A stretch of 64,000 nucleotides of DNA from Naegleria gruberi (Eukaryota), in assembly GCA_000004985.1 (NCBI GenBank), contig GG738854.1; one strand, written 5' to 3'. The translations under genes and the position numbers were made by a program. Shown in pieces: positions 1-24,348 of this stretch. Position 1 is the first letter of the stretch. Each line of letters opens with the position of its first letter. The notes beneath the pieces are model-generated. The model had not been told where the DNA came from and did no database searches. It was given only the letters and a program-made list of their open reading frames with translations.

Positions 1-245
1 ATATATTTTAGTGAAATTCAATATTTTCACTAAAATCATCATCACCGCCAGATTTATATGATAATTTGGAAAACTTTCAATCTAGTATTGTTCAGCATGG
101 TCGATTCCATCAGGTAAAATTACTTCCGAATATTTTCCTATTGGTTATCATGATGATAGGTTCATGTATATTTTCAACATGTACATATACCATATCTCAA
201 CATGTACTTCACCAACTTGAAAAATGTCTTTCATCACTACTATTC
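1..245. repeat. Left arm of a large inverted repeat (diverged; copy B equivalent about 12290-12813)
   Basis: Positions 30-245 are the reverse complement of 2510-2720, diverged to about 70-80% identity. The core ctcaacatgtacttcaccaacttg matches perfectly for 24 bp, and actaaaatcatcatcac matches for 17 bp. In copy B the inverted arm extends at least 500 bp (12290-12813 vs the reverse complement of 15073-15568). Confidence 0.7.
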
Positions 246-1476
246 AAATAGATAATAAACAATATATTTATTATCAGATTTTTATCATTTTGTGTTTTTG
301 CCAATTTCGGGTTATTCATGGTCACCAATCATGATCCATGCCAAAAGTACACAGCCAATCATCTTGAAACATTAATAAACTTTTATTAGTATTATTGTAG
401 GTGTACTATATAAATTATTTCGTCTTGTTTCGTTGAAATCATGAAGATTTGGATTTTTCTGTTTTTCATTAAATTTCACATCACCTACACCATATTTGTT
501 GATGTAAACTAGACTAGTTACATGTACATAATCAATGGTTGATTCTCTAATCATGTTTTAGTGTTGTTTTGTGTATTTAGGATTTTGAAATCTTGCGAAT
601 TATCCTGAGGTTATTCTTCATATAAATATGATTCCTCACTTCATGATATGAGGAGGGATTGATATCATGATTATTTGGAAGTGTTGTACAAATTTTGGAC
701 ACTATCTTAATTGAAATCAGGTAGAAAGAGTCCAATCTTTAACACCATATAAAATATGACTTGTGGCGATGGTTTTGACCTTGTTGTTCATACCTCCAAC
801 ATTGGAAAAGTAGAATGATAAACACCTTTTCTCATCATATTCAATATTTATGGAAGTTATGACCATAAGGATAAATTTCGCATGACCCAAGCATGCAGAT
901 TTTATTCGCCTAGATAAATTTCGCCTAAATTTTAGGCGAAATAAATCGCCTAGAACATAATCTCTTAAATAACCCAAATAAATCAACTCTGAATCCTAAC
1001 CAACCCCAAGCTCTCGCAGTATATGTTAGTAACTGCTACAAAAATTCATCATGGTACAATCGTCCCACTGACTCCTTCATCAAAAACAAAAAATACACTT
1101 CTGCTTACCAAAGGCAACAGCTGTCCCAACCACTTAGCCCGAACCAAACGTCCAAACACTGAACAGAACTAGATGGTTGAACAGCTAGTCTCTTATATCA
1201 TAACGAAGTAGATGTTGAAAAAGTTGGTTATCTTTGAAATTCAATTGATCTTAATGATGTTTAAGGAAATAAGGTTAATTGTTCGATTTAAGGTGAAAGA
1301 AATGAAATAAAAAGAAAAAACAAGAATTTTATTATTTTAATATCATTGTGTAATGTTCACAATGAGTTTGATAATTTTTGAATCACTCTTGAAGGAGTGA
1401 ATCATAAATAAAAGGTGTAAGTTTATTAATGTCTCTTGTATCAATAACGACCTGAGAGACCACACTTTTTCGGCAT

Positions 1477-2310
1477 TTAAGGACTCTGTGCAACATTTGA
1501 ATGATTTGGGTTAAGATTGAGTGCCGTTGAGTGAGTGTGCCTAAAGTAGGCGGATTGGAATTTTGAGTTTTTGATAAAAGGTTGTCGGGAGGGACGGTTG
1601 TACCACATAGTGTTTTTGTAACAATTTTCTAAATAAATGGCGAATGCCTTGTAAATTTCTAGAGCTACAGCCTTAGGAAGTCTTTTGTTCTTTGACCATA
1701 AGAGCCAGTCGCTGCGAGAGCAGCTTCCGTTAAAATCAATAATAAGGCAGTTCCTCACTTTGTCTGAAGGGAGACGAATCGGATCGAGGTTAAATTTGGA
1801 GGAAATATTGTCCCAAGTAGCATACAGTTCCTGTTTTTCATGGTTGCTTTTAGAGCACGATGAGAAAACGTGTGTCCAGTCTTCGGCAGTTTGACATGAA
1901 TCACAGGTTGTATTGTTATCTAGAATAATAGCGTGGTGAAGGTTTAGGAAAAGGAGTCTTTGTTGATAGTAGGAGAGATGGAAATTTCTCCAAAAGGAAA
2001 CAGTTGAAAGGTGCCAATTAAGATTTGAATCTAACTGGCCCAACTCTGAGATGGTTTTTTTGGATCTTTTGAGTTCAAGAATATCGTTTCGTAAGTTGGT
2101 GATGGGTTTGTGTGACGATCTGTCACAAAGAACCCATCCACTCTCTGTTGGATTGAAGTATGCATTGAGTTTGTTGATATTTAAGGCTGCATTTGTCCAG
2201 AGAGAGTCTGTAGATTTGCCTCGGAGAGCTTTTTGAATCGAGGCCCTTGCAATGTTGCGGGTGATTGTGGATGAGGAGTTCACAAATCTACAGACCGATG
2301 CTGTGCATTC
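1477..2310 (-). mobile_element. Degenerate non-LTR (LINE-like) retrotransposon 3' fragment, 5'-truncated
   Basis: The minus-strand ORF 1477-2541 contains C-D-S-C-x4-E-D-W-T-H-V-F-S-S-C-x13-W. This is the Cys/His pattern of the reverse-transcriptase zinc-binding (zf-RVT-like) tail found at the C-terminus of non-LTR ORF2 proteins. No intact RT motifs are recognisable upstream. The 5' end of the ORF runs into an 83-bp tandem duplication. Confidence 0.4.
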
Positions 2311-2314
2311 AATG

Positions 2315-2480
2315 TCTAACACATCTACAGGAGACGTGACTAGAAATCTCTCTCCAAGCCAAAACACAAAATAATGAAAAACTGATATTAAATATGGTCT
2401 AACACATCTACAGGAGACGTGGCTAGAAATCTCTCTCCAAGCCAAAACACAAAATAATGAAAAACTGATATTAAATATGG
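2315..2480. repeat. 83-bp direct tandem duplication (2 units); the same structure occurs at 14883-15048
   Basis: The unit tctaacacatctacaggagacgtgactagaaatctctctccaagccaaaacacaaaataatgaaaaactgatattaaatatggt is repeated twice head-to-tail with a single substitution (gtgactag/gtggctag). Confidence 0.85.
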
Positions 2481-2504
2481 TGTTTATTAGTGATTTAAAC
2501 AATA

Positions 2505-3000
2505 GTACTAGAAGAAAAGTATCCAAGTTGGTGAAGTACATGTTGAGTTATGGTCCATGTACTTTTTTGAAAATTCACATGTACCTATCCCTATCAAAAC
2601 TTGATGAAAATCCACCGTTCAAATTTACTATGCTACTATTGACCATTTCCAACAATCCTACATTAATAGTTTTCCAATCTTTCCAATGGATTCAACAGTG
2701 ATGATGATTTTAGTAAAATGTTGAGTTTCACCAAAATAAAGATATTTCCAAGACATAGAAATCACCCATACTATTCTACTATATTAAATATATCTATGAT
2801 GACGGTTGGTGAGTGTTCCGATGATGGTTTACCAACTTGAAAAATTATAATCCAAAAATTGATTTACTATTTTATGATGAAAGTCCAATAATAAAAATTA
2901 CTACTATTACTACTATTTAGATGATGTTGAGATGATGATGTGAAAGTTTGGCAGCTTACGGATGTGAAACCACTCGAAGAATCATCAAAGTACATCACGT
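2505..3000. repeat. Right arm of the inverted repeat (copy B equivalent 15073-15568)
   Basis: See the left-arm entry. The two arms flank a 2.27-kb core that holds the LINE fragment and the 83-bp duplication. The arm sequence belongs to a roughly 0.5-0.8 kb repeat family that recurs at 3290-3990. Confidence 0.7.
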
Positions 3001-3289
3001 ACTAGATATTGAAATATTTTTTCACATATTCTTAAATGAACAAACAAACCTTGCTTCAAATGGATGAATGACATGCTATGAGAAAAACAATAAAAACATG
3101 AAAATATCAGATATCCATGATTTTCACAAATTATGCTACAAGACTTGAAATTATACATTTAATAACATAATAAACATTATGAATTGTTGTTTTATTGTTG
3201 TTTGATTTGTAATTGGGCTATGAATCAACTCTGATAGCATCAAATATCGGAACTTGGTAAATTGACAACATGACGAAAATCTGATAATA

Positions 3290-3990
3290 AATATGATGTT
3301 TATTATCTGTTTAAATAGTAGTACTAAAAGACATGATTCAAGTTGGTGAAGTACATGTTGAGTTATAGTCCATGTACTTTTTCAAAATTCACATGTACCT
3401 AACCCTATCATAACTTGACCAAAATTGATAAGAGAAAATTCTCTTACCTACTATTGACCATTCCGAACAATACTACATTGACAGTTTTCCAACTTGTCCA
3501 GTAGATCCAGCAGTGATGATGAATTTAGTGAAAATTTTGACATTTCACCAAAATTACATTACTAAAAATTAATTTCCACAAATACTATTATTATATTGAT
3601 GGGAAACAATAATGATGATGGTTGGTGAATGATCCGATGATGGAACACCAAATTGTGATTTTCCATCATGAAAAATAACTTCCAATTTCATGATGATAAT
3701 CCACCAATAAAAATTACTATTATTACTACTATATAGATCATGTTGAGATGATGATGTGAAAGTTTGGTGGTTTTATGATGTAAAACCACTCCGAAAATCA
3801 TCATGTCCTCCTTGAGTAGATTTTATTTTTAGCCAACAAATTTTTTTTTGTGAAACCAAAGAAAAATCTTTACATAATTTTTCCAAATCATGATTAAATT
3901 CCAAAAGTTACTAGTAATACTATTATTTAAATCATGATGAGATGATGTGGTGAAATTCTTGGAGTTAATAGATGTGAAACTACTCAAAGA
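3290..3990. repeat. Additional direct, diverged copies of the arm repeat family
   Basis: Positions 3290-3560 are about 80% identical to 2480-2720 (gttggtgaagtacatgttgagttat..., ttgaccatt.c.aacaat.ctacatt.a.agttttccaa). Positions 3700-3800 and 3890-3990 repeat the tactattactactat...gatgatgtgaaagtttgg...gaaaccactc motif seen at 2900-2990. The inverted copy is at 12300-12400. Confidence 0.7.
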
Positions 3991-4520
3991 ATCAACAGTC
4001 GTGATGGACTGCTTGTTGCCAATATTTTTGAAATATTTTTGTTCCAGAAATTGAATTCCATTTAATGACTTCCAACATTGAATAAAGTAATATTTTGAAA
4101 CTAATTTTCTGATTATGTTATTGGAGTTGGTTAGTAGAGAGTTTTCTTAGTGTTTTCTGTAAAACACAATACCACGGTTTATGGTTATGATACATTACAG
4201 ATGGATAATATAGTTTATTTTTCAGTAACACTCTAACGTCGACACATTGGTCCCAACTTGTATTAATGTCCTGATAAGGTCATTTCTGGAATTTTGGAAC
4301 AAATAATTTTAAAACAGATATGTAAAATAAAGATTGTTTTGAAATAAAATGCAAAAATCGGTAATCCCTGACCTGTTGAACACATCAACCATTTGGCCAC
4401 ACGCTAAGCTGAAGGCTTCTTTTTGTATGCGTTACGTCTGTATTTGGCTAGCAAATAGATTTCGCACATATGTTTGTTGGAGTGGATAATAATTTGTTTT
4501 AAAATTATTATTGTAAAAAA

Positions 4521-6580
4521 ATGAACTTCGTTATAGTTATCCTTCTTTGCGTTTTTTTTGTAGTGCCAGTAAATACACAAACCCTGCTTTACAACATTAC
4601 CACTGTTGTTGGTGGGGGTAATGTTGGTGATGGTTTAGTTGCAACAAGTGCTAAATTATATTATCCTTCTGGAATTGCCATCAGTTCAAGTGATGAAACT
4701 TATATTGCTGATACAAACAATCATAGAATTCGTAAAATCACAACATCTGGTATAATTTCAACAATTGCTGGAAATGGAACAGCAGGATATAGTGGTGATG
4801 GTTCATCTGCAAAAAGTGCTCAATTATATTATCCTTCTGGAGTTGCCATCAGTTCAAGTGATGAAATTTATATTGTTGATAGAAGCAATAATAGAATTCG
4901 TAAAATCACAACATCTGGTATAATTTCAACAATTGCTGGAAATGGAACAGCAGGATATAGTGGTGATGGTCATCTGCAACAAGTGCTCAATTATATTTTC
5001 CTTCTGGAATTGCCATCAGTTCAAGTGATGAAATTTATATTGCTGATACAAACAATAATAGAATTCGTAAAATCACAACATCTGGTATAATTTCAACTAT
5101 TGCTGGAACTGGAGGGTATATGTTGGTGATGGTTTAGTTGCAACAAGTGCTAAATTATATTATCCTTCTGGAATTGCCATCAGTTCAAGTGATGAAACTT
5201 ATATTGCTGATACAAACAATCATAGAATTCGTAAAATCACAACATCTGGTATAATTTCAACAATTGCTGGAAATGGAACAGCAGGATATAGTGGTGATGG
5301 TTCATCTGCAAAAAGTGCTCAATTATATTATCCTTCTGGAGTTGCCATCAGTTCAAGTGATGAAATTTATATTGTTGATAGAAGCAATAATAGAATTCGT
5401 AAAATCACAACATCTGGTATAATTTCAACAATTGCTGGAAATGGAACAGCAGGATATAGTGGTGATGGTTCATCTGCAACAAGTGCTCAATTAAATTCTC
5501 CTTCTGGAATTGCCATCAGTTCAAGTGATGAAATTTATATTGCTGATATGTTCAATAATAGAATTCGTAAAATCACAACATCTGGTATTATTTCAACAAT
5601 TGCTGGAACTGGAACATCAGGATATAGTGGTGATGGTTCATCTGCAACAAGTATTCAATTATATTTTCCTTATGGAGTTGCAGTAAGTCTAAGTGATGAA
5701 ATTTATATTGCTGATATGTTCAATAATAGAATTCGTAAAATCACAACATCTGGTATCATTTCTACAATTGCTGGTGGTATAGGCGATGGACTATCAGCAA
5801 CTACAGCTTACATTAATGCCATTACGTTCGAATTTTCCTCAAGTGGTGAAATTTATATTGCTGATACAAACAATCATAGAATTCGTAAAATCACAACATC
5901 TGGTATAATTTCAACAATTGCCGGAACTGGAACATCAGGATATAGTGGTGATGGTTCATCTGCAACAAGTGCTCAATTAAATTCTCCTTATGGAATTGCT
6001 ATCAGTTCAAGTGGTGAAATTTATATTGCTGATACAAACAATAATAGAATTCGTAAAATCACAACATCTGGTATAATTTCAACAATTGCTGGAACTGGAA
6101 CACAAGGATATAGTGGTGATGGTTCATCTGCAACAAGTGCTCAATTATATAATCCTTATGGAGTTGCCATCAGTTCAAGAGGTGAAATTTATGTTGCTGA
6201 TTACAATAATAACAGAATTCGTAAAATCACAACATCTGGCATTATTTCAACAATTGCTGGAACTGGAACATCCGGCTATAGTGGTGATGGTTCATCTGCA
6301 ATAAGTGCTCAATTATATAATCCTTATGGAGTTGCCATCAGTTCAAGTGATGAAATTTATATTACTGATACAAACAATAACAGAATCAGAAAACTTAGTC
6401 CTTGGTGCACTGGAAATGCCATTCTTTTAGATGGATCTTGTGAGTATCCATGTTTTGGAACTACAAACAAAATTCCAGCTGTTGTATGCTCTGGAAAAGG
6501 TTCATGTATTGGCTATAATCAATGCAATTGCACAGCTGATTACTTTGGTTACAAATGTGATGAATTTTATTGCTATGAGT
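4521..6580 (+). CDS. 5' part of an NHL-repeat/EGF receptor-kinase paralog, frame-disrupted and ending in an N-gap
   Basis: It starts with a signal peptide, [21 protein letters not shown]. It then carries at least 11 tandem NHL-type repeats of about 56 aa (168 bp), of the form [53 protein letters not shown]. It ends in the first EGF-like repeat, CEYPCFG...CDEFYCYE, at the gap. The reading frame breaks at about 4975, where ggtgatggtcatctg replaces ggtgatggttcatctg (a 1-bp deletion). It breaks again at about 5110, where a roughly 0.5-kb internal tandem duplication (5117-5500 copying 4610-4990) joins. The last 460 bp are nearly identical to 18720-19190. Confidence 0.55.
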
Positions 6581-6648
6581 NNNNNNNNNNNNNNNNNNNN
6601 NNNNNNNNNNNNNNNNNNNNNNNNNNNNNNNNNNNNNNNNNNNNNNNN

Positions 6649-7128
6649 AACCCAAACCCAAACCCAAACCCAAACCCAAACCTTAACCCAAACCCAAACC
6701 CAAACCCAAACCCAAACCCAAACCCAAACCCAAACCCAAACCCAAACCCAAACCCAAACCCAAACCCAAACCCAAACCCAAACCCAAACCCAAACCCAAA
6801 CCCAAACCCAAACCCAAACCCAAACCCAAACCCAAACCCAAACCCAAACCCAAACCCAAACCCAAACCCAAACCCAAACCCAAACCCAAACCCAAACCCT
6901 AAACCCAAACCCAAACCCAAACCCAAACCCAAACCCAAACCCAAACCCAAACCCAAACCCAAACCCAAACCCAAACCCAAACCCAAACCCAAACCCAAAC
7001 CCAAACCCAAACCCAAACCCAAACCCAAACCCAAACCCAAACCCAAACCCAAACCCAAACCCAAACCCAAACCCAAACCCAAACCCAAACCCAAACCCAA
7101 ACCCAAACCCAAACACAAACCCACACAC
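6649..7128. repeat. Telomeric repeat tract (CCCAAA)n, i.e. (TTTGGG)n on the G-strand
   Basis: About 78 perfect 6-bp units of aaccca/cccaaa, with a few variants (ccttaaccc, ccctaaaccc) and the distal end cccaaacacaaacccacacac. It is preceded by the 68-N gap (6581-6648). Confidence 0.9.
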
Positions 7129-10100
7129 TATTGATACCATTGTGTTCACAATTGAAAATCTAGTCGATTGATATTAGTTTCATCAATTGGTAATATTAAT
7201 ATGGTCAATTAGGGTATCTCAAAGTCAATTTTGAAAAACTAAGAGTAGCTATATAAAATGTCTAATAAATCATAATTATATATCAAAACTGATATCAAAA
7301 TGCTTCAAATTACATATATAACATGATAGAATTGAAATAAATATCATATCTCATATTAAATATTGAGATAGTCAATTAAGGTACCTCAATATGGAAGTAC
7401 CCTAAGGATAATGAGATTCATTACCAAATTGATACAATATGTTATTAACATCATATAATGATGTTCCTATCAATTTCATATCATTTGGACATCATTCAAC
7501 ATTCATGTCATTCAACCATGTCAGCAACTACTCATGGCAATATGAAAAGTCAATATCAAGAGTTGCAACAAGATAGAGTATCATACCACTACTCTTATAA
7601 TTGATATTGATAACGTTTCTGAGTGATAGAAATCAATATCTATATAATTGGAATATCTGCCAAGCTACTGTCCTAATTGATCAAAGGTATCATTCTTACA
7701 TGTCAATAATGGTAAGAATCAATACCAATTCAATATTATCATGTTATAATCATCATATACTCTCNNNNNNNNNNNNNNNNNNNNNNNNNNNNNNNNNNNN
7801 NNNNNNNNNNNNNNNNNNNNNNNNNNNNNNNNNNNNNNNNNNNNNNNNNNNNNNNNNNNNNNNNNNNNNNNNNNNNNNNNNNNNNNNNNNNNNNNNNNNN
7901 NNNNNNNNNNNNNNNNNNNNNNNNNNNNNNNNNNNNNNNNNNNNNNNNNNNNNNNNNNNNNNNNNNNNNNNNNNNNNNNNNNNNNNNNNNNNNNNNNNNN
8001 NNNNNNNNNNNNNNNNNNNNNNNNNNNNNNNNNNNNNNNNNNNNNNNNNNNNNNNNNNNNNNNNNNNNNNNNNNNNNNNNNNNNNNNNNNNNNNNNNNNN
8101 NNNNNNNNNNNNNNNNNNNNNNNNNNNNNNNNNNNNNNNNNNNNNNNNNNNNNNNNNNNNNNNNNNNNNNNNNNNNNNNNNNNNNNNNNNNNNNNNNNNN
8201 NNNNNNNNNNNNNNNNNNNNNNNNNNNNNNNNNNNNNNNNNNNNNNNNNNNNNNNNNNNNNNNNNNNNNNNNNNNNNNNNNNNNNNNNNNNNNNNNNNNN
8301 NNNNNNNNNNNNNNNNNNNNNNNNNNNNNNNNNNNNNNNNNNNNNNNNNNNNNNNNNNNNNNNNNNNNNNNNNNNNNNNNNNNNNNNNNNNNNNNNNNNN
8401 NNNNNNNNNNNNNNNNNNNNNNNNNNNNNNNNNNNNNNNNNNNNNNNNNNNNNNNNNNNNNNNNNNNNNNNNNNNNNNNNNNNNNNNNNNNNNNNNNNNN
8501 NNNNNNNNNNNNNNNNNNNNNNNNNNNNNNNNNNNNNNNNNNNNNNNNNNNNNNNNNNNNNNNNNNNNNNNNNNNNNNNNNNNNNNNNNNNNNNNNNNNN
8601 NNNNNNNNNNNNNNNNNNNNNNNNNNNNNNNNNNNNNNNNNNNNNNNNNNNNNNNNNNNNNNNNNNNNNNNNNNNNNNNNNNNNNNNNNNNNNNNNNNNN
8701 NNNNNNNNNNNNNNNNNNNNNNNNNNNNNNNNNNNNNNNNNNNNNNNNNNNNNNNNNNNNNNNNNNNNNNNNNNNNNNNNNNNNNNNNNNNNNNNNNNNN
8801 NNNNNNNNNNNNNNNNNNNNNNNNNNNNNNNNNNNNNNNNNNNNNNNNNNNNNNNNNNNNNNNNNNNNNNNNNNNNNNNNNNNNNNNNNNNNNNNNNNNN
8901 NNNNNNNNNNNNNNNNNNNNNNNNNNNNNNNNNNNNNNNNNNNNNNNNNNNNNNNNNNNNNNNNNNNNNNNNNNNNNNNNNNNNNNNNNNNNNNNNNNNN
9001 NNNNNNNNNNNNNNNNNNNNNNNNNNNNNNNNNNNNNNNNNNNNNNNNNNNNNNNNNNNNNNNNNNNNNNNNNNNNNNNNNNNNNNNNNNNNNNNNNNNN
9101 NNNNNNNNNNNNNNNNNNNNNNNNNNNNNNNNNNNNNNNNNNNNNNNNNNNNNNNNNNNNNNNNNNNNNNNNNNNNNNNNNNNNNNNNNNNNNNNNNNNN
9201 NNNNNNNNNNNNNNNNNNNNNNNNNNNNNNNNNNNNNNNNNNNNNNNNNNNNNNNNNNNNNNNNNNNNNNNNNNNNNNNNNNNNNNNNNNNNNNNNNNNN
9301 NNNNNNNNNNNNNNNNNNNNNNNNNNNNNNNNNNNNNNNNNNNNNNNNNNNNNNNNNNNNNNNNNNNNNNNNNNNNNNNNNNNNNNNNNNNNNNNNNNNN
9401 NNNNNNNNNNNNNNNNNNNNNNNNNNNNNNNNNNNNNNNNNNNNNNNNNNNNNNNNNNNNNNNNNNNNNNNNNNNNNNNNNNNNNNNNNNNNNNNNNNNN
9501 NNNNNNNNNNNNNNNNNNNNNNNNNNNNNNNNNNNNNNNNNNNNNNNNNNNNNNNNNNNNNNNNNNNNNNNNNNNNNNNNNNNNNNNNNNNNNNNNNNNN
9601 NNNNNNNNNNNNNNNNNNNNNNNNNNNNNNNNNNNNNNNNNNNNNNNNNNNNNNNNNNNNNNNNNNNNNNNNNNNNNNNNNNNNNNNNNNNNNNNNNNNN
9701 NNNNNNNNNNNNNNNNNNNNNNNNNNNNNNNNNNNNNNNNNNNNNNNNNNNNNNNNNNNNNNNNNNNNNNNNNNNNNNNNNNNNNNNNNNNNNNNNNNNN
9801 NNNNNNNNNNNNNNNNNNNNNNNNNNNNNNNNNNNNNNNNNNNNNNNNNNNNNNNNNNNNNNNNNNNNNNNNNNNNNNNNNNNNNNNNNNNNNNNNNNNN
9901 NNNNNNNNNNNNNNNNNNNNNNNNNNNNNNNNNNNNNNNNNNNNNNNNNNNNNNNNNNNNNNNNNNNNNNNNNNNNNNNNNNNNNNNNNNNNNNNNNNNN
10001 NNNNNNNNNNNNNNNNNNNNNNNNNNNNNNNNNNNNNNNNNNNNNNNNNNNNNNNNNNNNNNNNNNNNNNNNNNNNNNNNNNNNNNNNNNNNNNNNNNNN

Positions 10101-11217
10101 NNNNNNNNNNNNNNNNNNNNNNNNNNNNNNNNNNNNNNNNNNNNNNNNNNNNNNNNNNNNNNNNNNNNNNNNNNNNNNNNNNNNNNNNNNNNNNNNNNNN
10201 NNNNNNNNNNNNNNNNNNNNNNNNNNNNNNNNNNNNNNNNNNNNNNNNNNNNNNNNNNNNNNNNNNNNNNNNNNNNNNNNNNNNNNNNNNNNNNNNNNNN
10301 NNNNNNNNNNNNNNNNNNNNNNNNNNNNNNNNNNNNNNNNNNNNNNNNNNNNNNNNNNNNNNNNNNNNNNNNNNNNNNNNNNNNNNNNNNNNNNNNNNNN
10401 NNNNNNNNNNNNNNNNNNNNNNNNNNNNNNNNNNNNNNNNNNNNNNNNNNNNNNNNNNNNNNNNNNNNNNNNNNNNNNNNNNNNNNNNNNNNNNNNNNNN
10501 NNNNNNNNNNNNNNNNNNNNNNNNNNNNNNNNNNNNNNNNNNNNNNNNNNNNNNNNNNNNNNNNNNNNNNNNNNNNNNNNNNNNNNNNNNNNNNNNNNNN
10601 NNNNNNNNNNNNNNNNNNNNNNNNNNNNNNNNNNNNNNNNNNNNNNNNNNNNNNNNNNNNNNNNNNNNNNNNNNNNNNNNNNNNNNNNNNNNNNNNNNNN
10701 NNNNNNNNNNNNNNNNNNNNNNNNNNNNNNNNNNNNNNNNNNNNNNNNNNNNNNNNNNNNNNNNNNNNNNNNNNNNNNNNNNNNNNNNNNNNNNNNNNNN
10801 NNNNNNNNNNNNNNNNNNNNNNNNNNNNNNNNNNNNNNNNNNNNNNNNNNNNNNNNNNNNNNNNNNNNNNNNNNNNNNNNNNNNNNNNNNNNNNNNNNNN
10901 NNNNNNNNNNNNNNNNNNNNNNNNNNNNNNNNNNNNNNNNNNNNNNNNNNNNNNNNNNNNNNNNNNNNNNNNNNNNNNNNNNNNNNNNNNNNNNNNNNNN
11001 NNNNNNNNNNNNNNNNNNNNNNNNNNNNNNNNNNNNNNNNNNNNNNNNNNNNNNNNNNNNNNNNNNNNNNNNNNNNNNNNNNNNNNNNNNNNNNNNNNNN
11101 NNNNNNNNNNNNNNNNNNNNNNNNNNNNNNNNNNNNNNNNNNNNNNNNNNNNNNNNNNNNNNNNNNNNNNNNNNNNNNNNNNNNNNNNNNNNNNNNNNNN
11201 NNNNNNNNNNNNNNNNN

Positions 11218-12010
11218 ATGGTCTTTGATTAAATTTAAAAATAGACTGCCGTTAATTACTGGAATATTAATATTCAAAGCTTGTTGATCAAGCTATTGAT
11301 TGAAATCAAACCGATTATTGAATATTGATCATTGAATTGGTGAATAATCACTCTTGATAATGCTAGATATTTCATATTGCATGCAAATCAACCTGATTCA
11401 ATCTACAAAGGTTGGTAGTTGCACCACTTCGTGGCGAAACTACCATTCCACGATGAATCAACAAAGAATCACTTCCATTCAACTCAATTTGACCGTTATA
11501 ATCAATAAATCAATGAAATGTTCCTTTATTAGCAATACCTGTTCAATCTAATGAGTATATTCACGTCCCAAACATTTGACTTCTCAAAGTCCATAATACA
11601 AAAGTTAGTTCTGACCTGACCTTTATAAATCTATCAATATAAGAAATGAAACCATCAAATTTACATCATTAATAGATTATAAGAAATATAATCAATGATA
11701 TAAATCTTCATTAAGTAATCTCTTAAATAACCCAAATAAATCAACTCTGAATCCTAACCAAACCCCCCAGTTTCCAGATCACAAAAGTCAAGATACTATA
11801 TATGGTCTTTGATTAAATTTAAAAATAGACTGCCGTTAATTACTGGAATATTAATTCAAAGCTTGTTGATCAAGGTATTGATTCAAATCAAACCGATTAT
11901 TGAATATTGATCATTGAATTGGTGAATAATCACTATCTTGATAATGTTACTTATTCATATTGCATGCAAATCAACCTGATTCAATCTACAAAGGTTGGTA
12001 GTTGCGAAAC
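11218..12010. repeat. Tandem repeat of about 585 bp (1.35 copies; second copy carries internal deletions)
   Basis: atggtctttgattaaatttaaaaatagactgccgttaattactggaatattaat...ggtgaataatcact...gcatgcaaatcaacctgattcaatctacaaaggttggtagttgc... begins both at 11218 and at 11803. Copy 1 contains the hairpin tggtagttgcaccacttcgtggcgaaactacca. The motif atctcttaaataacccaaataaatcaactctgaatcctaacca at 11720-11762 also occurs at 956-1000 and 13524-13568. Confidence 0.8.
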
Positions 12011-12568
12011 TACCCATCCACGATCAATCAACATTAGATTCACTGACCGGACCTTTAAATATCTATCAATATAAGAAATGAAACCATCAAATTTACATCA
12101 TTTATAGATGATAAGAATTATAATCAATGATATCAATCTTCACTAAGTAATCTGTTATAGGCGAAAAAAAACTGCCTGACAAACCATGCAAAAAAAACTG
12201 TTCGCATAATTAAGCTATGCGAAAAATATCTTTGGACATACCGATCCTTAGTTATAATCAATCAACAAGAACTTGGAAAAATAGTTCAAAAATATTGACA
12301 ACAAGTAAGTCCATCACGACTCTGTTGATTCTTGGAGTAGTTTCACATCTATTAATTTTAAGAATTTCACCACATCATCTCATCATCATTTAAATAGTAG
12401 TATTAATAGTAATTTTTGGAATTTAATTGTTCATCATGATTTGGAAATAATTTTATTATTTGGAAAAATTCAAGTTGGTACATCATCATCGGAACAACTA
12501 CCAACCATCATCATTGTTATTTACCATCATTATAATAGTAATATTTGTGGAAATAAATCTGATAATAA

Positions 12569-15500: not shown

Positions 15501-15624
15501 TGATGATGTGAAAGTTTGGCAGCTTACGGATGTGAAACCACTCGAAGAATCATCAAAGTACATCACGTACTAGATGTTGAAATATTTTTTCACATATTCT
15601 TAACTGAACAAACAAACCTTGCTT
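12569..15624. repeat. Segmental duplication copy B (same block as 1-3056)
   Basis: Same ORF set as 1-3056 shifted by 12568 (66/12634, 1477/14045, 2477/15045). The sequence runs upstream into the left inverted arm at 12290-12568. Confidence 0.85.
14045..14878 (-). mobile_element. Second copy of the LINE-like 3' fragment, inside duplication copy B
   Basis: Identical 354-aa minus-strand ORF (14045-15109) with the same zf-RVT-like motif. Confidence 0.4.
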
Positions 15625-15991
15625 CAAAAAATCAACCAAACTCTCGTAATACCTTGCTTGGTTTTCGTTCCAACAATTCAAGCCAAACAACACAAGAGAA
15701 TCTATTTAATATAATTGGAAAATTCAATTGTATAAATGTATCATTCAATTTATCGGTGTTACTAAGGTTGTGCATTTTCCATTTTGGTTTACCGTCATCA
15801 GTATTAAGCGGATGCTCTTCTCCCGTCTTTAGTAAGAAACTGAGTGTTCTCCGTCTCATCCGTCCCCCGTTTCACCGTCACTTAGTACCATCTCTACAGG
15901 ATTTCTTGTAGCTCCTTTTTCAACAGAAAAAAAGAATTATTTAATAAGTTGTGCTCATTGTTGTAAGAATCATTCCTCATCTGAAACAATA

Positions 15992-16206
15992 ATGACATTG
16001 AAAAAAGTATATGGAAGCTTTAATCAAACTAAGGATATCGAAAAAACACAACAGTATTGTTTTGAATGTCAAATTGAAGCAGTGGGAGATTATGAAAAGA
16101 TATCTGAAAGCGGGATTGCAGAAGACTGGGCCATCCTCTCATTTGAAAACTATATGGAGTATGGTTCTCCAAACTATTTAATACCATCCCCATCTCAGGT
16201 ATAAAG
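15992..16206 (+). other. Possible 5' gene fragment running into the N-gap (unresolved)
   Basis: The ORF MTLKKVYGSFNQTKDIEKTQQYCFECQIEAV...SPNYLIPSPSQV is open to the gap at 16207. It has no identifiable domain and lies in the unique sequence distal to duplication copy B. Confidence 0.2.
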
Positions 16207-17601
16207 NNNNNNNNNNNNNNNNNNNNNNNNNNNNNNNNNNNNNNNNNNNNNNNNNNNNNNNNNNNNNNNNNNNNNNNNNNNNNNNNNNNNNNNNNNNNNN
16301 NNNNNNNNNNNNNNNNNNNNNNNNNNNNNNNNNNNNNNNNNNNNNNNNNNNNNNNNNNNNNNNNNNNNNNNNNNNNNNNNNNNNNNNNNNNNNNNNNNNN
16401 NNNNNNNNNNNNNNNNNNNNNNNNNNNNNNNNNNNNNNNNNNNNNNNNNNNNNNNNNNNNNNNNNNNNNNNNNNNNNNNNNNNNNNNNNNNNNNNNNNNN
16501 NNNNNNNNNNNNNNNNNNNNNNNNNNNNNNNNNNNNNNNNNNNNNNNNNNNNNNNNNNNNNNNNNNNNNNNNNNNNNNNNNNNNNNNNNNNNNNNNNNNN
16601 NNNNNNNNNNNNNNNNNNNNNNNNNNNNNNNNNNNNNNNNNNNNNNNNNNNNNNNNNNNNNNNNNNNNNNNNNNNNNNNNNNNNNNNNNNNNNNNNNNNN
16701 NNNNNNNNNNNNNNNNNNNNNNNNNNNNNNNNNNNNNNNNNNNNNNNNNNNNNNNNNNNNNNNNNNNNNNNNNNNNNNNNNNNNNNNNNNNNNNNNNNNN
16801 NNNNNNNNNNNNNNNNNNNNNNNNNNNNNNNNNNNNNNNNNNNNNNNNNNNNNNNNNNNNNNNNNNNNNNNNNNNNNNNNNNNNNNNNNNNNNNNNNNNN
16901 NNNNNNNNNNNNNNNNNNNNNNNNNNNNNNNNNNNNNNNNNNNNNNNNNNNNNNNNNNNNNNNNNNNNNNNNNNNNNNNNNNNNNNNNNNNNNNNNNNNN
17001 NNNNNNNNNNNNNNNNNNNNNNNNNNNNNNNNNNNNNNNNNNNNNNNNNNNNNNNNNNNNNNNNNNNNNNNNNNNNNNNNNNNNNNNNNNNNNNNNNNNN
17101 NNNNNNNNNNNNNNNNNNNNNNNNNNNNNNNNNNNNNNNNNNNNNNNNNNNNNNNNNNNNNNNNNNNNNNNNNNNNNNNNNNNNNNNNNNNNNNNNNNNN
17201 NNNNNNNNNNNNNNNNNNNNNNNNNNNNNNNNNNNNNNNNNNNNNNNNNNNNNNNNNNNNNNNNNNNNNNNNNNNNNNNNNNNNNNNNNNNNNNNNNNNN
17301 NNNNNNNNNNNNNNNNNNNNNNNNNNNNNNNNNNNNNNNNNNNNNNNNNNNNNNNNNNNNNNNNNNNNNNNNNNNNNNNNNNNNNNNNNNNNNNNNNNNN
17401 NNNNNNNNNNNNNNNNNNNNNNNNNNNNNNNNNNNNNNNNNNNNNNNNNNNNNNNNNNNNNNNNNNNNNNNNNNNNNNNNNNNNNNNNNNNNNNNNNNNN
17501 NNNNNNNNNNNNNNNNNNNNNNNNNNNNNNNNNNNNNNNNNNNNNNNNNNNNNNNNNNNNNNNNNNNNNNNNNNNNNNNNNNNNNNNNNNNNNNNNNNNN
17601 N

Positions 17602-18074
17602 AACCCAAACCCAAACCCAAACCCAAGGGCAAACCCAAACCCAAACCCAAACCCAAAGCCAAACCCAAACCCAAACCCAAACCCAAACCCAAACCCAAAC
17701 CCAAACCCAAACCCAAACCCAAACCCAAACCCAAACCCAAACCCAAACCCAAACCCAAACCCAAACCCAAACCCAAACCCAAACCCAAACCCAAACCCAA
17801 ACCCAAACCCAAACCCAAACCCAAACCCAAACCCAACCCAAACCCAAACCCAAACCCAAACCCAAACCCAAACCCAAACCCAAACCCAAACCCAAACCCA
17901 AACCCAAACCCAAACCCAACCCAAACCCAAACCCAAACCCAAACCCAAACCCAAACCCAAACCCAAACCCAAACCCAAACCCAAACCCAAACCCAAACCC
18001 AAACCCAAACCCAAACCCAAACCCAAACCCAAACCCAAACCCAAACCCAACCCACCCAAACCCAACCCAAACCC
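17602..18074. repeat. Telomeric repeat tract (CCCAAA)n joined directly to coding sequence
   Basis: About 78 units of CCCAAA with sparse variants (cccaagggc, cccaaagcc, cccaaccca). It is preceded by the N-gap 16207-17601 and is followed immediately at 18075 by in-frame NHL-repeat coding sequence (t caa tta tat aat cct tat gga gtt gcc...). Confidence 0.9.
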
Positions 18075-21000
18075 TCAATTATATAATCCTTATGGAGTTG
18101 CCATCAGTTCAAGTGATGAAATTTATATTGCTGATACAAACAATCATAGAATTCGTAAAATCACAACATCTGGTATTATTTCAACAATTGCTGGAACTGG
18201 AACAGCAGGATATAATGGTGATGGTTCATCTGCAACAAGTGCTAAATTATATTTTCCTTATGGAGTTGCCATCAGTTCAAGTGATGAAATTTATATTGCT
18301 GATATGGATATGTTCAATAATAGAATTCGTAAAATCACAACATCTGGTATTATTTCAACAATTGCTGGCGGTATAGGCGATGGACTATCAGCAACTACAG
18401 CTTACATTAATGCCATTACGTTCGAATTTTCCTCAAGTGGTGAAATTTATATTGCTGATACAAACAATCATAGAATTCGTAAAATCACAACATCTGGTAT
18501 CATTTTAACAATTGCTGGAACTGGAACACAAGGATATAGTGGTGATGGTTCATCTGCAACAAGTGCTCAATTAAATTCTCCTTATGGAGTTGCCATCAGT
18601 TCAAGAGGTGAAATTTATATTGCTGATACAAACAATAACAGAATTCGTAAAATCACAACATCTGGCATTATTTCAACAATTGCTGGAACTGGAACATCAC
18701 GGCTATAGTGGTGATGGTTCATCTGCAACAAGTGCTCAATTATATAATCCTTATGGAGTTGCCATCAGTTCAAGTGATGAAATTTATGTTGCTGATTACA
18801 ATAATAACAGAATTCGTAAAATCACAACATCTGGCATTATTTCAACAATTGCTGGAACTGGAACATCCGGCTATAGTGGTGATGGTTCATCTGCAATAAG
18901 TGCTCAATTATATAATCCTTATGGAGTTGCCATCAGTTCAAGTGATGAAATTTATATTACTGATACAAACAATAACAGAATCAGAAAACTTAGTCCTTGG
19001 TGCACTGGAAATGCCATTCTTTTAGATGGATCTTGTGAGTATCCATGTTTTGGAACTACAAACAAAATTCCAGCTGTTGTATGCTCTGGAAAAGGTTCAT
19101 GTATTGGCTATAATCAATGCAATTGCACAGCTGATTACTTTGGTTACAAATGTGATGAATTTTATTGCTATGAGTTGTTGAGAAATCACTCTGGTGTTTG
19201 TTCATCCCAAGGTATTTGTACTTCTCCCAATGAGTGCTCTTGTTCATCCGGTTATTATGGGGAAAATTGCCAATACTTTTATTGCCACTCTATTCCGTTC
19301 AACTCTTCTACAGTATGTTCGTCAGTAGGAACTTGTATTGGATTGAATAATTGCTCGTGTAATCCAGGATATTCAGGGTCGTATTGCCAAGACTTTACTT
19401 GTTATGGTGTTAGTTCTAAAAACACTACCGTATGTTCTTCTCATGGCACGTGTACATCTCTAAATAATTGCTCTTGCGTTACTGGTTATTATGGAAATAA
19501 TTGCGAGAATTTTGAATGTTTCGATATTCTTTTCACTAATTCTACAGTTTGTTCTAGCAGAGGAAAATGTTTCTCTCCTAACAATTGTACATGTGATTCT
19601 GGATATTATGGATCTAATTGTGAAATGTATGATTGTTATGGATTGTCCAAAAACAGTTCTAATGTATGTTCAGGGCATGGAAGTTGTACTTCATTCAATA
19701 ATTGTACATGTAGAGATGGTTACTTTGATTCTAAATGTGAGTCATTTAATTGTGCCGGAGAGAAATTCACTGGTCAAAGTCTTTGTCAAAATAATGGAAC
19801 TTGTTCTGGCCCTGGAAATTGTGTTTGTCCATATAAGTTTGGAGGAGCAAGATGTGAATATTTTAAATGTTTTTCAGTGACAGCCAACGAACCAAAAGTA
19901 TGCGGAGGACATGGTACATGTCTCAACTATAACAATTGTTCTTGCTCAGAAAAGTGGTTTGGAGAAGATTGTTCAGTTACTAATTGTTTTAATATAACAT
20001 CAAATTCTAGTTCTGTATGTGGTGCTAGAGGAAATTGTAGTGATTATGACAGGTGTACTTGTAATAATGGTTATATTGGTAGAGAATGTGAACATATTGT
20101 TTGTTATGACAGGATTGAAAGTGATAGAATGGTTTGCTCTGGAAATGGTAAATGTATATCACCAAATAATTGTACATGTGAAAGTGGTTTTGTTGGAAAT
20201 GAATGTCAATATCATGAAATTTATTTGAACACATCATCTGCAATGATATTTTCTTTCCATGATAGTCTAATGAAAATGTTGCCAAATGGCAGTGAAATAT
20301 TTTCATGTAATGATATTTTTGAAGAATCTGAACTAATGAAATTTGGCGAAAATTCTATTTTATGTCAATGGAGAAAGAAATCAATGCAAATTTATCTTGG
20401 TTTTGATTACACAATTCAACATTACTCGGTTATTCAAACCAAATTTAATTTTTCAATGATTGTGAACAGTTTAACCAATAATGATGTTTCTTCTTCCAGT
20501 TGTACATTTGGATACTCATTAACAGAAGCATCACCAATGTTAGATTTAGTAATACGTTTGAATTGTGATGATACTTTACATGGATTCACGAAAATGACAA
20601 GTAGATGGATATGTAGTCAATGTAGTGGCGTTATTTCATCATTGTTAAACAAATATTCCAATAGAACATTTATTCATATTCCAATTTCATATACAAACAG
20701 TTTAAACCCTATTCAAGGATATAAGATTATTAATTTACAAGCTCTTTATTCATCTGGAGTGACTAGTGAAAAATCAATAAGTAAGGAAGTGAAGATACAA
20801 ACCTATACAAAATCATTACCCCCTAGTTATTACTGGTTAAGTGATAATTTTGACGGAAAGGCATATTCCTGTATTGGTCATAATTGTATTTTAGAAACTT
20901 CATTGAATAGTTTAAATTCTTCAATTTCATATTCATTTTCTGGCTTTTTCAGTTTATTGAATACTGATTTATATTCCAAACAAATGGTTAGAATGATTAA

Positions 21001-24000
21001 TGAATATTCAGGAGGAGTTTTAGACAGTGAATTTAATTCTAATATGCAAGTTTTTGGAGTTCAATTGAAAACATATGTTTTCTTACCTTTTACTATTGAC
21101 TCTTTTAAATATTCTACATTTAAAAATTTGGATTTCGTAATGACAGGTGTTAATAGAACCTATTCTATCAACTCTGATGAAACAATACGTATTGAGCTAA
21201 TGATTGATGATCCTTATATTTCCAAATATACTTTAAGTGATTATATGGAGTTTTCTTGGCAATGTTTCAAAGTTTCACCTTTCAACAAATCTCAACATTT
21301 AAGTGATAACTTGTGCTCTTCTACTAAATCTTATCTTGAACAAATAGATATTAAGCAAATAATGTCTTCAAAAGAAGGTTCTTATTATATTACTGCTTTA
21401 ATATCCTCCAATAAGTATTTTATAACAACAGTTTATCATTATGAAGGTTATATTGAGTTCTTAGATATTTCAAAGCTCTCTCCAAAAATAACTACAGATT
21501 ATATACCAGCAATTACACCTTCCCATAAGAATATTTATATGAGAAATGTAGTGAAATCTTCAACAATGGTTTCATTTATATGGAAACTCAAACAAGGATA
21601 TTTAAATAATATTGATAATAATATTGAAGAATTTCTTCAAGATAATACAATTTACAGAACTATAATGGAAAATGATATTGAAATAATTTTAAAAATTGAT
21701 AACAAACATTTAATTGAAGGAGAGGTATACGAATTTGAATTGTCAACTACCAATTCAAACGGAATTACCACTATATCCATTTCAACTAGAATTGATTATA
21801 GTCCAAGATTATCCTGTGATGTAGAAAATTTGAAACATGATGTTAATTTTACAAGTTTTGAAACTTTGATAGGTATTAACTGCTTGAAATTACCATATGA
21901 AAGTATTTCAAGTTTTGTAATGGAATTTCATTCAAACAACGAAAGATTAGGTGTAATATCCAATACACCAAAGAAATCTTTGATAACAAAGCTACCGTAC
22001 CCATATTCTAAAGATGGTAGAATTGCTCTTGTCGTAAAACTTCAAAACTTATATGGTTCTATTGGAATTTTTAGAAAAAATATTAAGATTGAATTACCTA
22101 GTTATTTGTTAAATGACAATTCTATCCTATCAAGATTTAATTATATTTCAGATCAATTCCAAATTCTTAAAAATTCTAAACCACTCAAGATGGAAATTTC
22201 CAGTGAAATGAATAGTTTACTCACCCTCTTAATTCAAAATGAAACTCTTTCAACATTATCAGACAGCATTTTGAAAGAATTTAATCCAATGAAAATAAGT
22301 TCATTTAATTCAATGCTTGGTGATATGTTGAAAATAACAAAGAGTTTATGGGATATTACTTACAAAGTTGATGAAAGAGTTATTCAATTAACTTTACCAA
22401 TAATTTACAAGATTTCTAACATTTTAAAAACAACAATTAGTGATACTTCATCATTATCAACATTTAGTATTGAATTAGAAGCTTTTTTGGAATTAATTTA
22501 TTCAGGAATGAAGAAAGCACTTAATTATTATCCAACTTTCATTTATAATGATTTACTTGATAATTATCATTTAGAAGAAATTAAATCATTGCAAAATATT
22601 CTTGCAAATATCCATCAAAATAATTTAGATGAACAATATAAGATCCATAAATTTGCTTTAGAATATTTCAAGTTAACAGGGAATAATGGCGACAATTCAA
22701 GTTTTGTCGAAGATTTAGAATATTCATCTTTATTGAATGAGAAATCAATTTCACTCACAGTTTCCAACTTTAAAGTTGATATCAAATTGCCTAGTGACTT
22801 TTCTAGTCAAATTTCTCTAACTTCCAAATCTAAACTATTCTATTCTATTAGATCATTTAATTCTCCAACTAGACAGGAAACAACACTCCTGCAAAACAAA
22901 CCAATTGTAGATCTATCTCTGTTAGATACATCATACAATACAATCACAGTGAAAAATATTAATCCACCAATAATATTCAAATTTCAAGGCTTAATTACAA
23001 ACAACAAAACTGGTATTAACACTACTTGTGTTTTTTATGATACTACCTTAAAGATATGGTCAACTAGTGGACTTGAGACCTTAACAACAATTAACAAAAG
23101 AACAGATGACTATATTTACTTTGATATGGAATGTAGATCTAATCATTTATCAGTGTTTTCCATCCAAGAAATTAATTATAACTCTCCAATTGTGCAAACA
23201 TCTGGTTTATCATCTACAAGATCCGTTTCTAGTAATGATTCTATATTAATTATCATCTTATCTACAGTGTTGCCTATTACTTTTTTGATATTTGCTTTCA
23301 GTATTATTCTAATTGTCTTTATTATACTTTTATTTAGAAGCAAGCAAAAGAAAGCAAATGAACTTGCGAAAACTAATGCTAATAATATTGAACTTGAAGG
23401 TTTTTCGAGTACTGATTTCCCGACAGAAGGAAGTATGTTTATCCAACCTCTCATGAGCATTTCTTCAAATGGAACTACTAGCGAAGCTTTCAATCCTCTC
23501 TCTAGATATTCCAACTTGATAAGAATTGGTCAAGGAGCTTTCGGATCAGTCTTTAAGGCCTTTGATAGTAAAACAAATTCGGTGAAAGCTATCAAAGTCA
23601 TTAAATATTCTTCCATGGAAGAATTGAATAATTTTATGAAAGAAGGAACTCAATTAATGAATGTCAATCATCCCTATATTTTACGGGTGAATGAATTCTT
23701 TGTTAGTAAGGACCAATTACTTTGTATTGATATGGACTTTTATGAGCTGGGAGATTTAGTTAAGTTAACAAATATTGATTTTGATTGTTCTGAAAAATTG
23801 ATCAAACAAATAATTTATCAAATGTGTCAAGCTCTTGATTATATTCACTGTACTATGAAAATAATTCATAGAGATATCAAACCATCCAATGTTTTTGTGA
23901 AAAGCTTGGAAAAAGATAATATCCACATAATTGTGGCAGATTTTGGGTTAGCTAAATCTAATATTGGATCGACAAATAATTCCTATGCTGGTACTCCTAT

Positions 24001-24348
24001 ATTTATGGTAAGTTTTTTGTACATTTAACATTTTATTCATTTGAAAAGTCCCCTGAGCTTGGTTTGGGTGGAAAGTACTATTACAACACTGATATTTATA
24101 GTTTAGGAGTTACAATCTATCAAATCATGACAAAAGATACCTTTACATCCATAAGTCAATTATACCTAGGTAAAGACCAAACAGATGTAACCAAATTATT
24201 GTATAAAAAGTTACAAGAAAGTGGTCAATATTCTTCAAAACTTGTAGAATTGGTAGTATTAATGTTAACCAAAGATAACTTGATTAGACCACAAGCTCAA
24301 GATATTTTGGAGGATTATTATTTTGATGATTTGAAAAAGAAACAATAA
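18075..24348 (+). CDS. Receptor-type Ser/Thr protein kinase: NHL repeats + about 13 tenascin-type EGF repeats + transmembrane segment + kinase. N-terminally truncated by the telomere; 2 exons
   Basis: Exon 1 is 18076-24007 and exon 2 is 24049-24348. The intron at 24008-24048 starts gtaagt, ends aaaag, and is 41 bp. Splicing joins GTPIFM to [21 protein letters not shown], which is the APE region of the kinase. Kinase motifs present are [21 protein letters not shown] and DFGLAK. The EGF repeats follow CxGxSxxxxVCSxxGxCxxxNxCxCxxGYxGxxCExF. The transmembrane segment is [32 protein letters not shown] 1-bp insertion at about 18697 (acatcacggctatag vs acatccggctatag in the other copies) shifts the frame between NHL repeats. 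This may be a sequencing error or a true disruption. Confidence 0.8.

What the first reader, a model, noticed from the sequence alone, without database searches (positions are those of the whole stretch)
6581..7764. Second telomeric tract with wrong-way polarity relative to its left flank: a scaffold misjoin or a second chromosome end sharing the same subtelomere
The tract at 6649-7128 has the same CCCAAA orientation and nearly the same length (about 78 units) as the one at 17602. The sequence to its left (1-6580) cannot be chromosome-internal with this polarity. So 1-6580 and 6649-7764 must be separate pieces joined through N-gaps. The proximal end of the tract carries variant units (cccaaacacaaacccacacac, i.e. 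TGTGGG/TGTTTG-type), which may record the telomerase template or early repeat drift. Together with the duplicated 3-kb block this suggests two homologous chromosome ends or haplotypes laid in tandem by the scaffolder.
Basis: partly seen in the sequence, partly recalled or inferred. Interest (0 to 1): 0.5.

Follow-up and report, generated by a model that had tools for sequence, protein, structure and literature searches.

The report
Naegleria telomere stranded inside a scaffold
This is a genuine chromosome-end (telomere) repeat of the amoeba Naegleria gruberi on a tiny 1.1-kb contig that scaffolding software placed between other contigs, so its odd internal position is an assembly artefact, not new biology.

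Summary
Positions 6649-7128 hold about 79 CCCAAA units (75 perfect). The tract starts at the first base after a 68-N gap and ends in degenerate units (CACAAA CCCACACAC). It is followed by 636 bp of AT-rich, non-coding, unique sequence.

The window is Naegleria gruberi NEG-M, from the JGI Sanger assembly. TTTGGG is already the published candidate telomere repeat of this species.

The tract has the polarity of a left chromosome end for its right flank only. Contig A to its left (1-6580) is an unmerged second copy of sequence that recurs 12.6 kb downstream. It is identical over 3,005 bp to contig C and identical over its last ~390 bp to the start of contig D. Its natural continuation is therefore D, not this telomere.

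So the join across the 68-N gap is most likely a scaffolding artefact.

The more interesting item is the other tract (17602-18074). It is fused directly to the coding sequence of an NHL-EGF-kinase receptor gene whose intact 5' end survives in contig A. This suggests a terminal truncation healed by telomere addition.

No read-level data were reachable, so continuity could not be proven.

The parts
1..6580 (.). Contig A. An unmerged alternative copy of sequence found again 12.6 kb downstream. It carries a repeat element, an AT-rich spacer and the intact 5' end of an NHL-repeat receptor gene (signal peptide from about 4522, 10.5 NHL units at 4625-6386, first EGF-like region to 6580).
   Evidence: Self-BLAST gives 3-3060 = 12571-15628 at 99.93% and 5486-6580 = 18074-19175 at 95.9%. 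The last ~390 bp are 100% identical to D.
6581..6648 (.). 68-N scaffold gap. This is the only link between contig A and the telomere-bearing contig.
   Evidence: sequence
6649..7128 (+). Telomeric array, C-rich strand (CCCAAA)n, which is (TTTGGG)n on the minus strand. It has 75 perfect units, two distal variants (CCTTAA at 6681, CCCTAAA at 6897) and degenerate proximal units at 7114-7128 (CACAAA CCCACACAC). The polarity is that of a left chromosome end for the sequence to its right.
   Evidence: TTTGGG is published as the candidate N. gruberi telomere repeat (PMC3622300).
7129..7764 (.). Flank B, the presumed subtelomeric sequence of this end. GC is 27%. There is no ORF longer than 48 aa, no match elsewhere in the window and only short chance-level internal repeats.
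7765..11217 (.). 3,453-N scaffold gap between flank B and contig C.
11218..16206 (.). Contig C. It has an AT-rich, internally repeated left part (11218-12570), then a second copy of the 3-kb block (12571-15628), then 578 bp absent from contig A (15629-16206).
17602..18074 (+). Second (CCCAAA)n array, at the first base of contig D. It is fused directly to NHL-repeat coding sequence. The junction reads ...CCCAAACCC|TCAATTATATAATCC at 18074/18075.
18075..24028 (+). 5'-truncated NHL-EGF-transmembrane-protein kinase receptor gene at the start of contig D. It matches the right end of contig A.
   Evidence: Pfam finds NHL, EGF_2, EGF_TEN and Pkinase domains.

Best explanation
The tract is a real terminal telomere of Naegleria gruberi, read on its C-rich strand, together with the first ~640 bp of its subtelomere. 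The pair was assembled as a 1,116-bp Sanger contig (6649-7764).

A telomere of this kind is made by telomerase copying an RNA template into TTTGGG units on the strand that runs 3' towards the chromosome tip. It caps the end to the LEFT of 7129. That role rests on general telomere biology and was not tested here.

The tract sits in the interior of the scaffold because of mate-pair scaffolding. The region is repeat-rich and exists in more than one version. The assembler therefore left redundant contigs (A versus C and D) and strung A, the telomere contig, C and D in a row with estimated N gaps. Contig A is not physically joined to the tract. By homology its true continuation is contig D from 19176 onward.

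Most likely, though only inferred, the tract marks either the natural end of the full-length homologue of this chromosome arm or the end of another chromosome drawn in through shared repeats.
For: Shown:
- The organism is N. gruberi NEG-M. Two window ORFs are exact matches to EFC47536 and EFC47539 on a 665,159-bp scaffold.
- TTTGGG is the published candidate telomere repeat of this genome (PMC3622300).
- The array has 79 copies at 98% purity, against 0 expected by chance.
- It begins at the first base after an N gap, and no non-telomeric sequence lies on its left within the contig.
- Its proximal end has degenerate units followed by AT-rich, non-coding, unique DNA.
- Contig A ends at 6580 with no telomere units. 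There it is 100% identical over ~390 bp to D at 18785-19175, and D continues the same ORF.
- A is identical to C over 3,005 bp.
- The C-to-D spacing set by the scaffolder (15628 to 18074, 2,446 bp) reproduces the spacing inside A (3060 to 5486, 2,426 bp) to within 20 bp. This indicates that the clones bridging C and D have the structure of A.
- The assembly is known to consist of 1,977 contigs in 784 scaffolds (PMC6831594).
- Naegleria is described as a heterozygous diploid with chromosome-size variation (PMC9928731).

Inferred: the mechanism of misplacement, and which chromosome end this tract represents.
Against: - No reads, mate pairs or independent assembly could be examined, so physical discontinuity across the 68-N gap is argued rather than demonstrated.
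- A specific, small gap estimate (68 bp) could mean that some clone really links contig A to this contig.
- The contig is only 1.1 kb. It may rest on two or three reads, and variant units in its distal part may be read errors.
- Flank B has no match in the window, so nothing ties it to this chromosome arm except the scaffolder's placement.
Confidence: 0.75

Rival explanations
1. The two tracts are the two allelic ends of one chromosome arm. The full-length homologue ends at tract 1 (tract 1 - B - gap - C-like sequence - A-like spacer - intact NHL-kinase gene - D). The other homologue lost about 11 kb and was healed by de novo telomere addition inside the NHL-kinase gene (tract 2). This refines the best explanation rather than contradicting it.
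For: - Tract 2 abuts coding sequence with no subtelomere, and only 1 nt is shared at the junction (C on the + strand; intact units read GTGC|TCAATT).
- The units next to the junction are irregular (CCCAA, CCCA).
- Contig A keeps the intact 5' end of the same gene and merges into D at 100% identity.
- DNA left of the gene is AT-rich, repeat-rich and gene-poor, as expected near an end.
- Clones holding a chromosome end can only have mates to the right, which fits the placement of B to the left of C (inference).
- Naegleria is a heterozygous diploid (PMC9928731).
Against: - A and D are only 89-92% identical in the 300 bp next to tract 2. D is therefore not a simple truncation of A.
- C diverges completely from A after the shared block (15629-16206 is absent from A).
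- The shared block belongs to a multi-copy family, so the mate links may be spurious.
- The tract 2 junction could come from a single chimeric clone.
Confidence: 0.35
2. It is a genuine interstitial telomeric sequence. Contig A, the 475-bp tract and flank B are contiguous in the genome, and the 68-N gap merely hides a short unsequenced stretch.
For: The scaffolder gave a small, specific gap of 68 bp. Internal telomere-repeat blocks were reported for many genomes in the survey that named TTTGGG (PMC3622300).
Against: - Sanger reads longer than the tract should have carried left-flank sequence into it, yet the contig starts with pure repeat.
- Contig A ends with no repeat unit and is identical to D at that point, so it already has a non-telomeric continuation.
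- Continuity would require a second copy of the receptor gene cut within 68 bp of 6580.
- The tract is long and 98% pure.
- Its degenerate units lie only on the B side, as at a true telomere-subtelomere boundary.
Confidence: 0.07
3. It is a cloning or assembly chimera. The repeat is real telomeric DNA, but it was ligated or mis-overlapped to unrelated sequence B, so the contig does not exist in the genome.
For: The contig is tiny (1,116 bp) and probably of low coverage. It contains odd units (CCTTAA, CCCTAAA) that may be read errors.
Against: The orientation is the correct one for capping B. The junction shows graded degeneration (CACAAA CCCACACAC) rather than an abrupt join, and B looks like AT-rich non-coding subtelomere. 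Telomeric DNA is a very small share of the genome, so a chance chimera involving it is improbable (inference).
Confidence: 0.08

Closest known systems
Candidate telomere repeat (TTTGGG)n of Naegleria gruberi (Fulneckova et al. 2013, Genome Biol Evol, PMC3622300)
   Same: Same organism, same hexamer, and found in the same public assembly by position and orientation.
   Different: That paper names the motif only, calls for experimental proof of terminal position, and says nothing about this locus. Here the tract is inside a scaffold rather than at a scaffold end.
Redundant haplotype contigs and mate-pair misplacement in Sanger-era scaffolds of heterozygous genomes
   Same: Near-identical contigs (A versus C at 99.93%; A versus D at 100% over the last 390 bp) sit side by side in one scaffold, separated by estimated N gaps.
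   Different: Read-level proof is missing. Here the redundancy happens to include telomere-bearing contigs, which exposes the misplacement through polarity.
Chromosome healing by de novo telomere addition at a break. Known from Plasmodium falciparum subtelomeric deletions, yeast, human terminal deletions and ciliate chromosome fragmentation (my own knowledge, not checked here).
   Same: Tract 2, not tract 1, joins telomere repeats directly to the interior of a gene. There is at most 1 nt of shared sequence, the first units are irregular, and an intact copy of the gene exists.
   Different: Tract 1 shows none of this. It adjoins non-coding DNA through degenerate units, as an old natural end would. 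Healing has not been described in Naegleria in the papers I could search. A chimeric clone is not excluded.
Interstitial telomeric sequences of vertebrates and plants
   Same: A block of telomere repeat that is not at the end of the assembled sequence.
   Different: Such sequences have non-telomeric DNA on both sides within a continuous sequence. Here the left side is an N gap, and the left-hand contig has a different homologous continuation.
Paramecium telomeres, TTGGG(G/T) (my own knowledge)
   Same: TTTGGG units occur.
   Different: In Paramecium they are mixed with TTGGGG, and the nuclear genetic code differs. The long ORFs here use the standard code, and exact protein matches identify Naegleria.

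Membership tests
Terminal telomere array of N. gruberi | Long tandem array of the species' telomere repeat | tested here: met
   79 copies of CCCAAA/TTTGGG at 98% matches, against 0 expected by chance. The motif is published for this species and the species is identified by exact proteins.
Terminal telomere array of N. gruberi | Polarity: the G-rich strand runs 3' towards the terminus, so a left end reads CCCAAA on the top strand | tested here: met
   All 128 matches are on the + strand. Unique sequence lies only to the right within the contig.
Terminal telomere array of N. gruberi | The array lies at the physical end of a DNA molecule | not testable with these tools
   Only a proxy is available: the array starts at the first base of a contig after an N gap. 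Reads, BAL31 digestion or long reads are needed.
Terminal telomere array of N. gruberi | Degenerate repeats at the inner boundary, then subtelomeric non-coding DNA | tested here: met
   CACAAA CCCACACAC at 7114-7128. The flank has 27% GC and no ORF longer than 48 aa.
Interstitial telomeric sequence | Non-telomeric DNA contiguous with the repeat on both sides | tested here: not met
   The left side is a 68-N gap. Contig A ends without any repeat unit and is identical to D, which continues as coding sequence.
Healed chromosome break (de novo telomere addition) | Repeats joined directly to ordinary (for example coding) sequence, with an intact version of that sequence existing elsewhere | tested here: not met
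   Not met for tract 1, whose flank B is non-coding, unique and reached through degenerate units. Met for tract 2 only: the junction lies inside an NHL unit and the intact gene 5' end is in contig A.
Scaffold misjoin or redundant haplotype contig | Contigs in one scaffold that duplicate each other at near identity and cannot all be collinear | tested here: met
   A 3-3060 = C 12571-15628 (2 mismatches). A 5486-6580 = D 18074-19175. The offsets are 12,568 and 12,588.
Scaffold misjoin or redundant haplotype contig | Mate-pair or read evidence contradicting the join | not testable with these tools
   The N. gruberi genome is not in the gene-position index, and no reads are available.

The most novel reading that the evidence does not exclude
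Strain NEG-M is heterozygous for a terminal deletion of about 11 kb on this chromosome arm. One homologue ends naturally at tract 1. The other was broken inside an NHL-EGF-kinase receptor gene and healed by telomerase, which added TTTGGG repeats directly to coding sequence at 18075. This would be the first sequence-level case of chromosome healing in a heterolobosean, and a concrete source of the chromosome-size polymorphism reported for Naegleria.
Probability: 0.35. Interest if true: 0.35.

Novelty: already known. Interest (0 to 1): 0.18.

Why it matters
For the finding as given, the value is practical. It flags about 18 kb at this position of the N. gruberi reference scaffold as a tangle of redundant contigs. 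The receptor-kinase gene and the 3-kb element are each represented twice, and the true chromosome end is probably at 17602 or at 6649. Gene counts, synteny and telomere catalogues drawn from this assembly should take that into account.

The biological interest lies in the neighbouring tract, which is fused to a truncated gene. If real, it documents telomere healing in Naegleria. It is directly testable with nanopore reads that already exist for this species.

Tried and rejected
- Ciliate origin. I considered a Paramecium-type telomere and alternative macronuclear chromosome ends at first. I rejected it because the long ORFs use the standard code and exact protein matches identify N. gruberi.
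- Fetching the scaffold or independent assemblies. The look-up of encoding contigs found nothing on record for P0001, P0003, P0004, P0005 and the two small ORFs of flank B.
- Searching for independent copies of the tract 2 junction. A junction peptide was swamped by bacterial NHL proteins and returned no Naegleria hit. That search was wasted.
- Exact scans of JGI metagenome contigs for both junctions gave 0 hits.
- Rfam on 1-20000 gave no family.
- Pfam on the 354-aa ORF of the duplicated block and on the 15629-16206 overhang gave no family. My guesses of a retroelement zinc-finger tail and of a trypsin-like protease are therefore unsupported and dropped.
- Internal repeats in flank B are only short, chance-level pairs.
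- The Fritz-Laylin 2010 genome paper is not held in the library.
- The idea that the two tracts are one consensus used twice was rejected because their variant units differ.

Full report
**What is there.** The region 6581-7764 consists of three parts. First comes a 68-N gap (6581-6648). Next comes a hexamer array at 6649-7128. Last comes 636 bp of other sequence, which ends at a 3,453-N gap.

Tandem Repeats Finder scores the array at 79.0 copies of a 6-bp unit with 98% matches. It finds a twin array at 17602-18074 with 79.8 copies and 96% matches.

Parsed by hand, tract 1 reads AA, 5 x CCCAAA, CCTTAA, 35 x CCCAAA, CCCTAAA, 35 x CCCAAA, CACAAA, CCCACACAC, then TATTGAT.... The 18-mer (CCCAAA)3 occurs 128 times. 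Every occurrence is on the + strand and inside the two tracts, and none appeared in 100 shuffles.

**Whose DNA it is.** Long ORFs read through with the standard genetic code. Two of them are exact matches to Naegleria gruberi NEG-M proteins EFC47536 and EFC47539, both on a scaffold of 665,159 bp.

This is the JGI Sanger assembly, which consists of 1,977 contigs in 784 scaffolds (PMC6831594). A survey of eukaryotic telomeres already proposed TTTGGG as the telomere repeat of N. gruberi. It did so from the position and orientation of such tracts in this very assembly, and it noted that experimental proof of terminal position is still needed (PMC3622300). The motif is therefore known.

**Layout of the first 19 kb.** There are four contigs:
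- A: 1-6580.
- The telomere contig: 6649-7764.
- C: 11218-16206.
- D: 17602 to beyond 64000, with no further gaps.

Self-comparison gives two main matches. A 3-3060 matches C 12571-15628 at 99.93%. A 5486-6580 matches D 18074-19175 at 95.9%. The offsets are 12,568 and 12,588.

Within the first match there is no mismatch over 3-3007. Two mismatches follow in the next 53 bp, and then the two contigs diverge completely. C continues with 578 bp that A lacks.

Within the second match the last ~390 bp are identical. Identity falls to 89-92% in the 300 bp nearest tract 2.

Contig A therefore represents a second version of the region that C and D also represent. The spacing the scaffolder gave C and D (2,446 bp between the two homology blocks) reproduces the spacing inside A (2,426 bp). 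This is what one expects if the clones bridging C and D came from A-type molecules whose reads were shared out among identical contigs (inference).

The first two bases of the window (AT) differ from C (TA) although the next 3,005 bases are identical. This suggests that the window starts at a ragged contig end, possibly the scaffold start. That too is an inference.

**Why the tract is a real end and the join to A is not.** Four points bear on this.
- The tract starts at the first base of its contig with pure repeat. If it were internal, Sanger reads longer than its 475 bp should have carried left-flank sequence into it.
- Degeneration is confined to the inner (right) boundary. It is followed by 27%-GC DNA with no ORF above 48 aa and no copy elsewhere in the window. 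That is the look of a telomere-subtelomere boundary.
- Contig A ends at 6580 without a single repeat unit. It ends inside the EGF-like part of a receptor gene, at a point where it is identical to D, and D continues the reading frame for another 4.8 kb.
- Physical continuity of A with the tract would require a second gene copy cut within 68 bp of 6580 and capped by a telomere of the wrong polarity.

I therefore rate a scaffolding artefact at about 0.75, a true interstitial repeat at about 0.07 and a chimeric contig at about 0.08. None of this is proven. I could not reach reads or another assembly.

**The "shared subtelomere" idea.** It does not hold. The inner flanks of the two tracts are unrelated: B is unique non-coding DNA, while tract 2 is followed by coding sequence. 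The shared 3-kb block lies to the left of each tract.

That block carries a 354-aa orphan ORF. The ORF has paralogues at 54-76% identity, two of them annotated N. gruberi proteins on other scaffolds and the third unnamed. The block is bounded by ~500-bp repeats in inverted orientation, with a third copy in A at 3265-3803. It belongs to a repeat family, and such repeats are what confuse mate-pair scaffolding.

The equal lengths of the two tracts most likely reflect how far a Sanger read anchored in unique sequence can reach into a repeat (inference). They are lower bounds on the true telomere length.

**The neighbouring tract.** Tract 2 is joined at 18074/18075 directly to an NHL-repeat unit...CCCAAACCC|TCAATTATATAATCC. 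Intact units read ...AAGTGC|TCAATTATATAATCC, so at most one base is shared. The last few repeat units before the junction are irregular (CCCAA, CCCA).

The gene it truncates encodes NHL repeats, many EGF-like domains, a membrane span and a protein kinase domain. Its signal peptide and first NHL units are present only in contig A.

This is the signature of a chromosome break healed by de novo telomere addition, a process well known in other organisms (my own knowledge). It also implies two kinds of molecule in the sequenced culture.

Naegleria is described as a heterozygous diploid with chromosome-size differences between strains (PMC9928731). A heterozygous terminal deletion is therefore plausible. 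Tract 1 would then be a natural candidate for the end of the full-length homologue, about 11 kb further out.

Three things argue for caution:
- the low identity of A and D next to the junction;
- the divergence of C from A after the shared block;
- the possibility that the junction rests on one chimeric clone.

I give the allelic-ends reading about 0.35.

**Comparison and verdict.** The repeat motif is already published for this species. A telomere tract stranded inside a scaffold by redundant contigs is a familiar assembly problem. The finding is real but ordinary, and I score its interest at 0.18.

Its main use is as a warning about this part of the reference. It also points to the probably healed end at 17602-18075. 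Existing nanopore reads of N. gruberi (PMC12695648) could confirm or dismiss that end quickly.

Noticed in passing
window 17602-19175: The second CCCAAA tract is fused directly to the coding sequence of an NHL-EGF-kinase receptor gene (junction at 18074/18075). The intact 5' end of the gene, with its signal peptide, exists in contig A at about 4522-6580. This looks like a terminal truncation healed by telomere addition.
   Followed up: partly
window 3-3060 and 12571-15628 (related repeats at 3265-3803, 3893-4040 and 12277-12861): A 3-kb block is present twice with no mismatch over 3,005 bp. It is bounded by ~500-bp repeats in inverted orientation. It carries a 354-aa orphan ORF (1477-2541 and 14045-15109, minus strand) with no Pfam match. 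Paralogues of the ORF at 54-76% identity were found, two of them on other N. gruberi scaffolds. It is probably a mobile or subtelomeric repeat family.
   Followed up: partly
window 2314-2481 and 14882-15049: An 83-bp unit repeated twice in tandem (98% matches) lies inside the 354-aa ORF of the duplicated block.
   Followed up: no
window 4625-6386 and 18074-18981: The 168-bp NHL tandem array changes reading frame several times in contig A. It changes once in contig D, near 18700, where ACATCACGGCTAT replaces ACA-CAAGGATAT. This points to consensus errors in a collapsed tandem array or to decaying gene copies.
   Followed up: no
window 15629-16206: The right end of contig C is 578 bp absent from contig A and from the rest of the window. 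It has a 70-aa ORF that ends at a GTATAA, which could be an intron donor. There is no Pfam match, so my first impression of a protease motif is unsupported.
   Followed up: partly
window 52931-63403: A single 3,490-aa ORF contains 23 bacterial Ig-like (Big_9) stretches, cadherin-like domains and a VWA domain. The region has higher GC (0.38-0.40) than its surroundings (about 0.32-0.35). It is a bacterial-type adhesin architecture inside a gap-free Naegleria contig and may have been acquired by horizontal transfer.
   Followed up: no
window 24456-27026 (minus strand): A protein kinase followed by ten DUF4116 repeats (EFC47536). This is an architecture that I recall as greatly expanded in Naegleria.
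   Followed up: no
window 11218-12157: The left part of contig C is AT-rich (29% GC). It holds internal direct repeats: 11218-11422 matches 11802-12005 at 95%, and 11611-11725 matches 12043-12157 at 92%. This fits subtelomere-like, gene-poor DNA.
   Followed up: no
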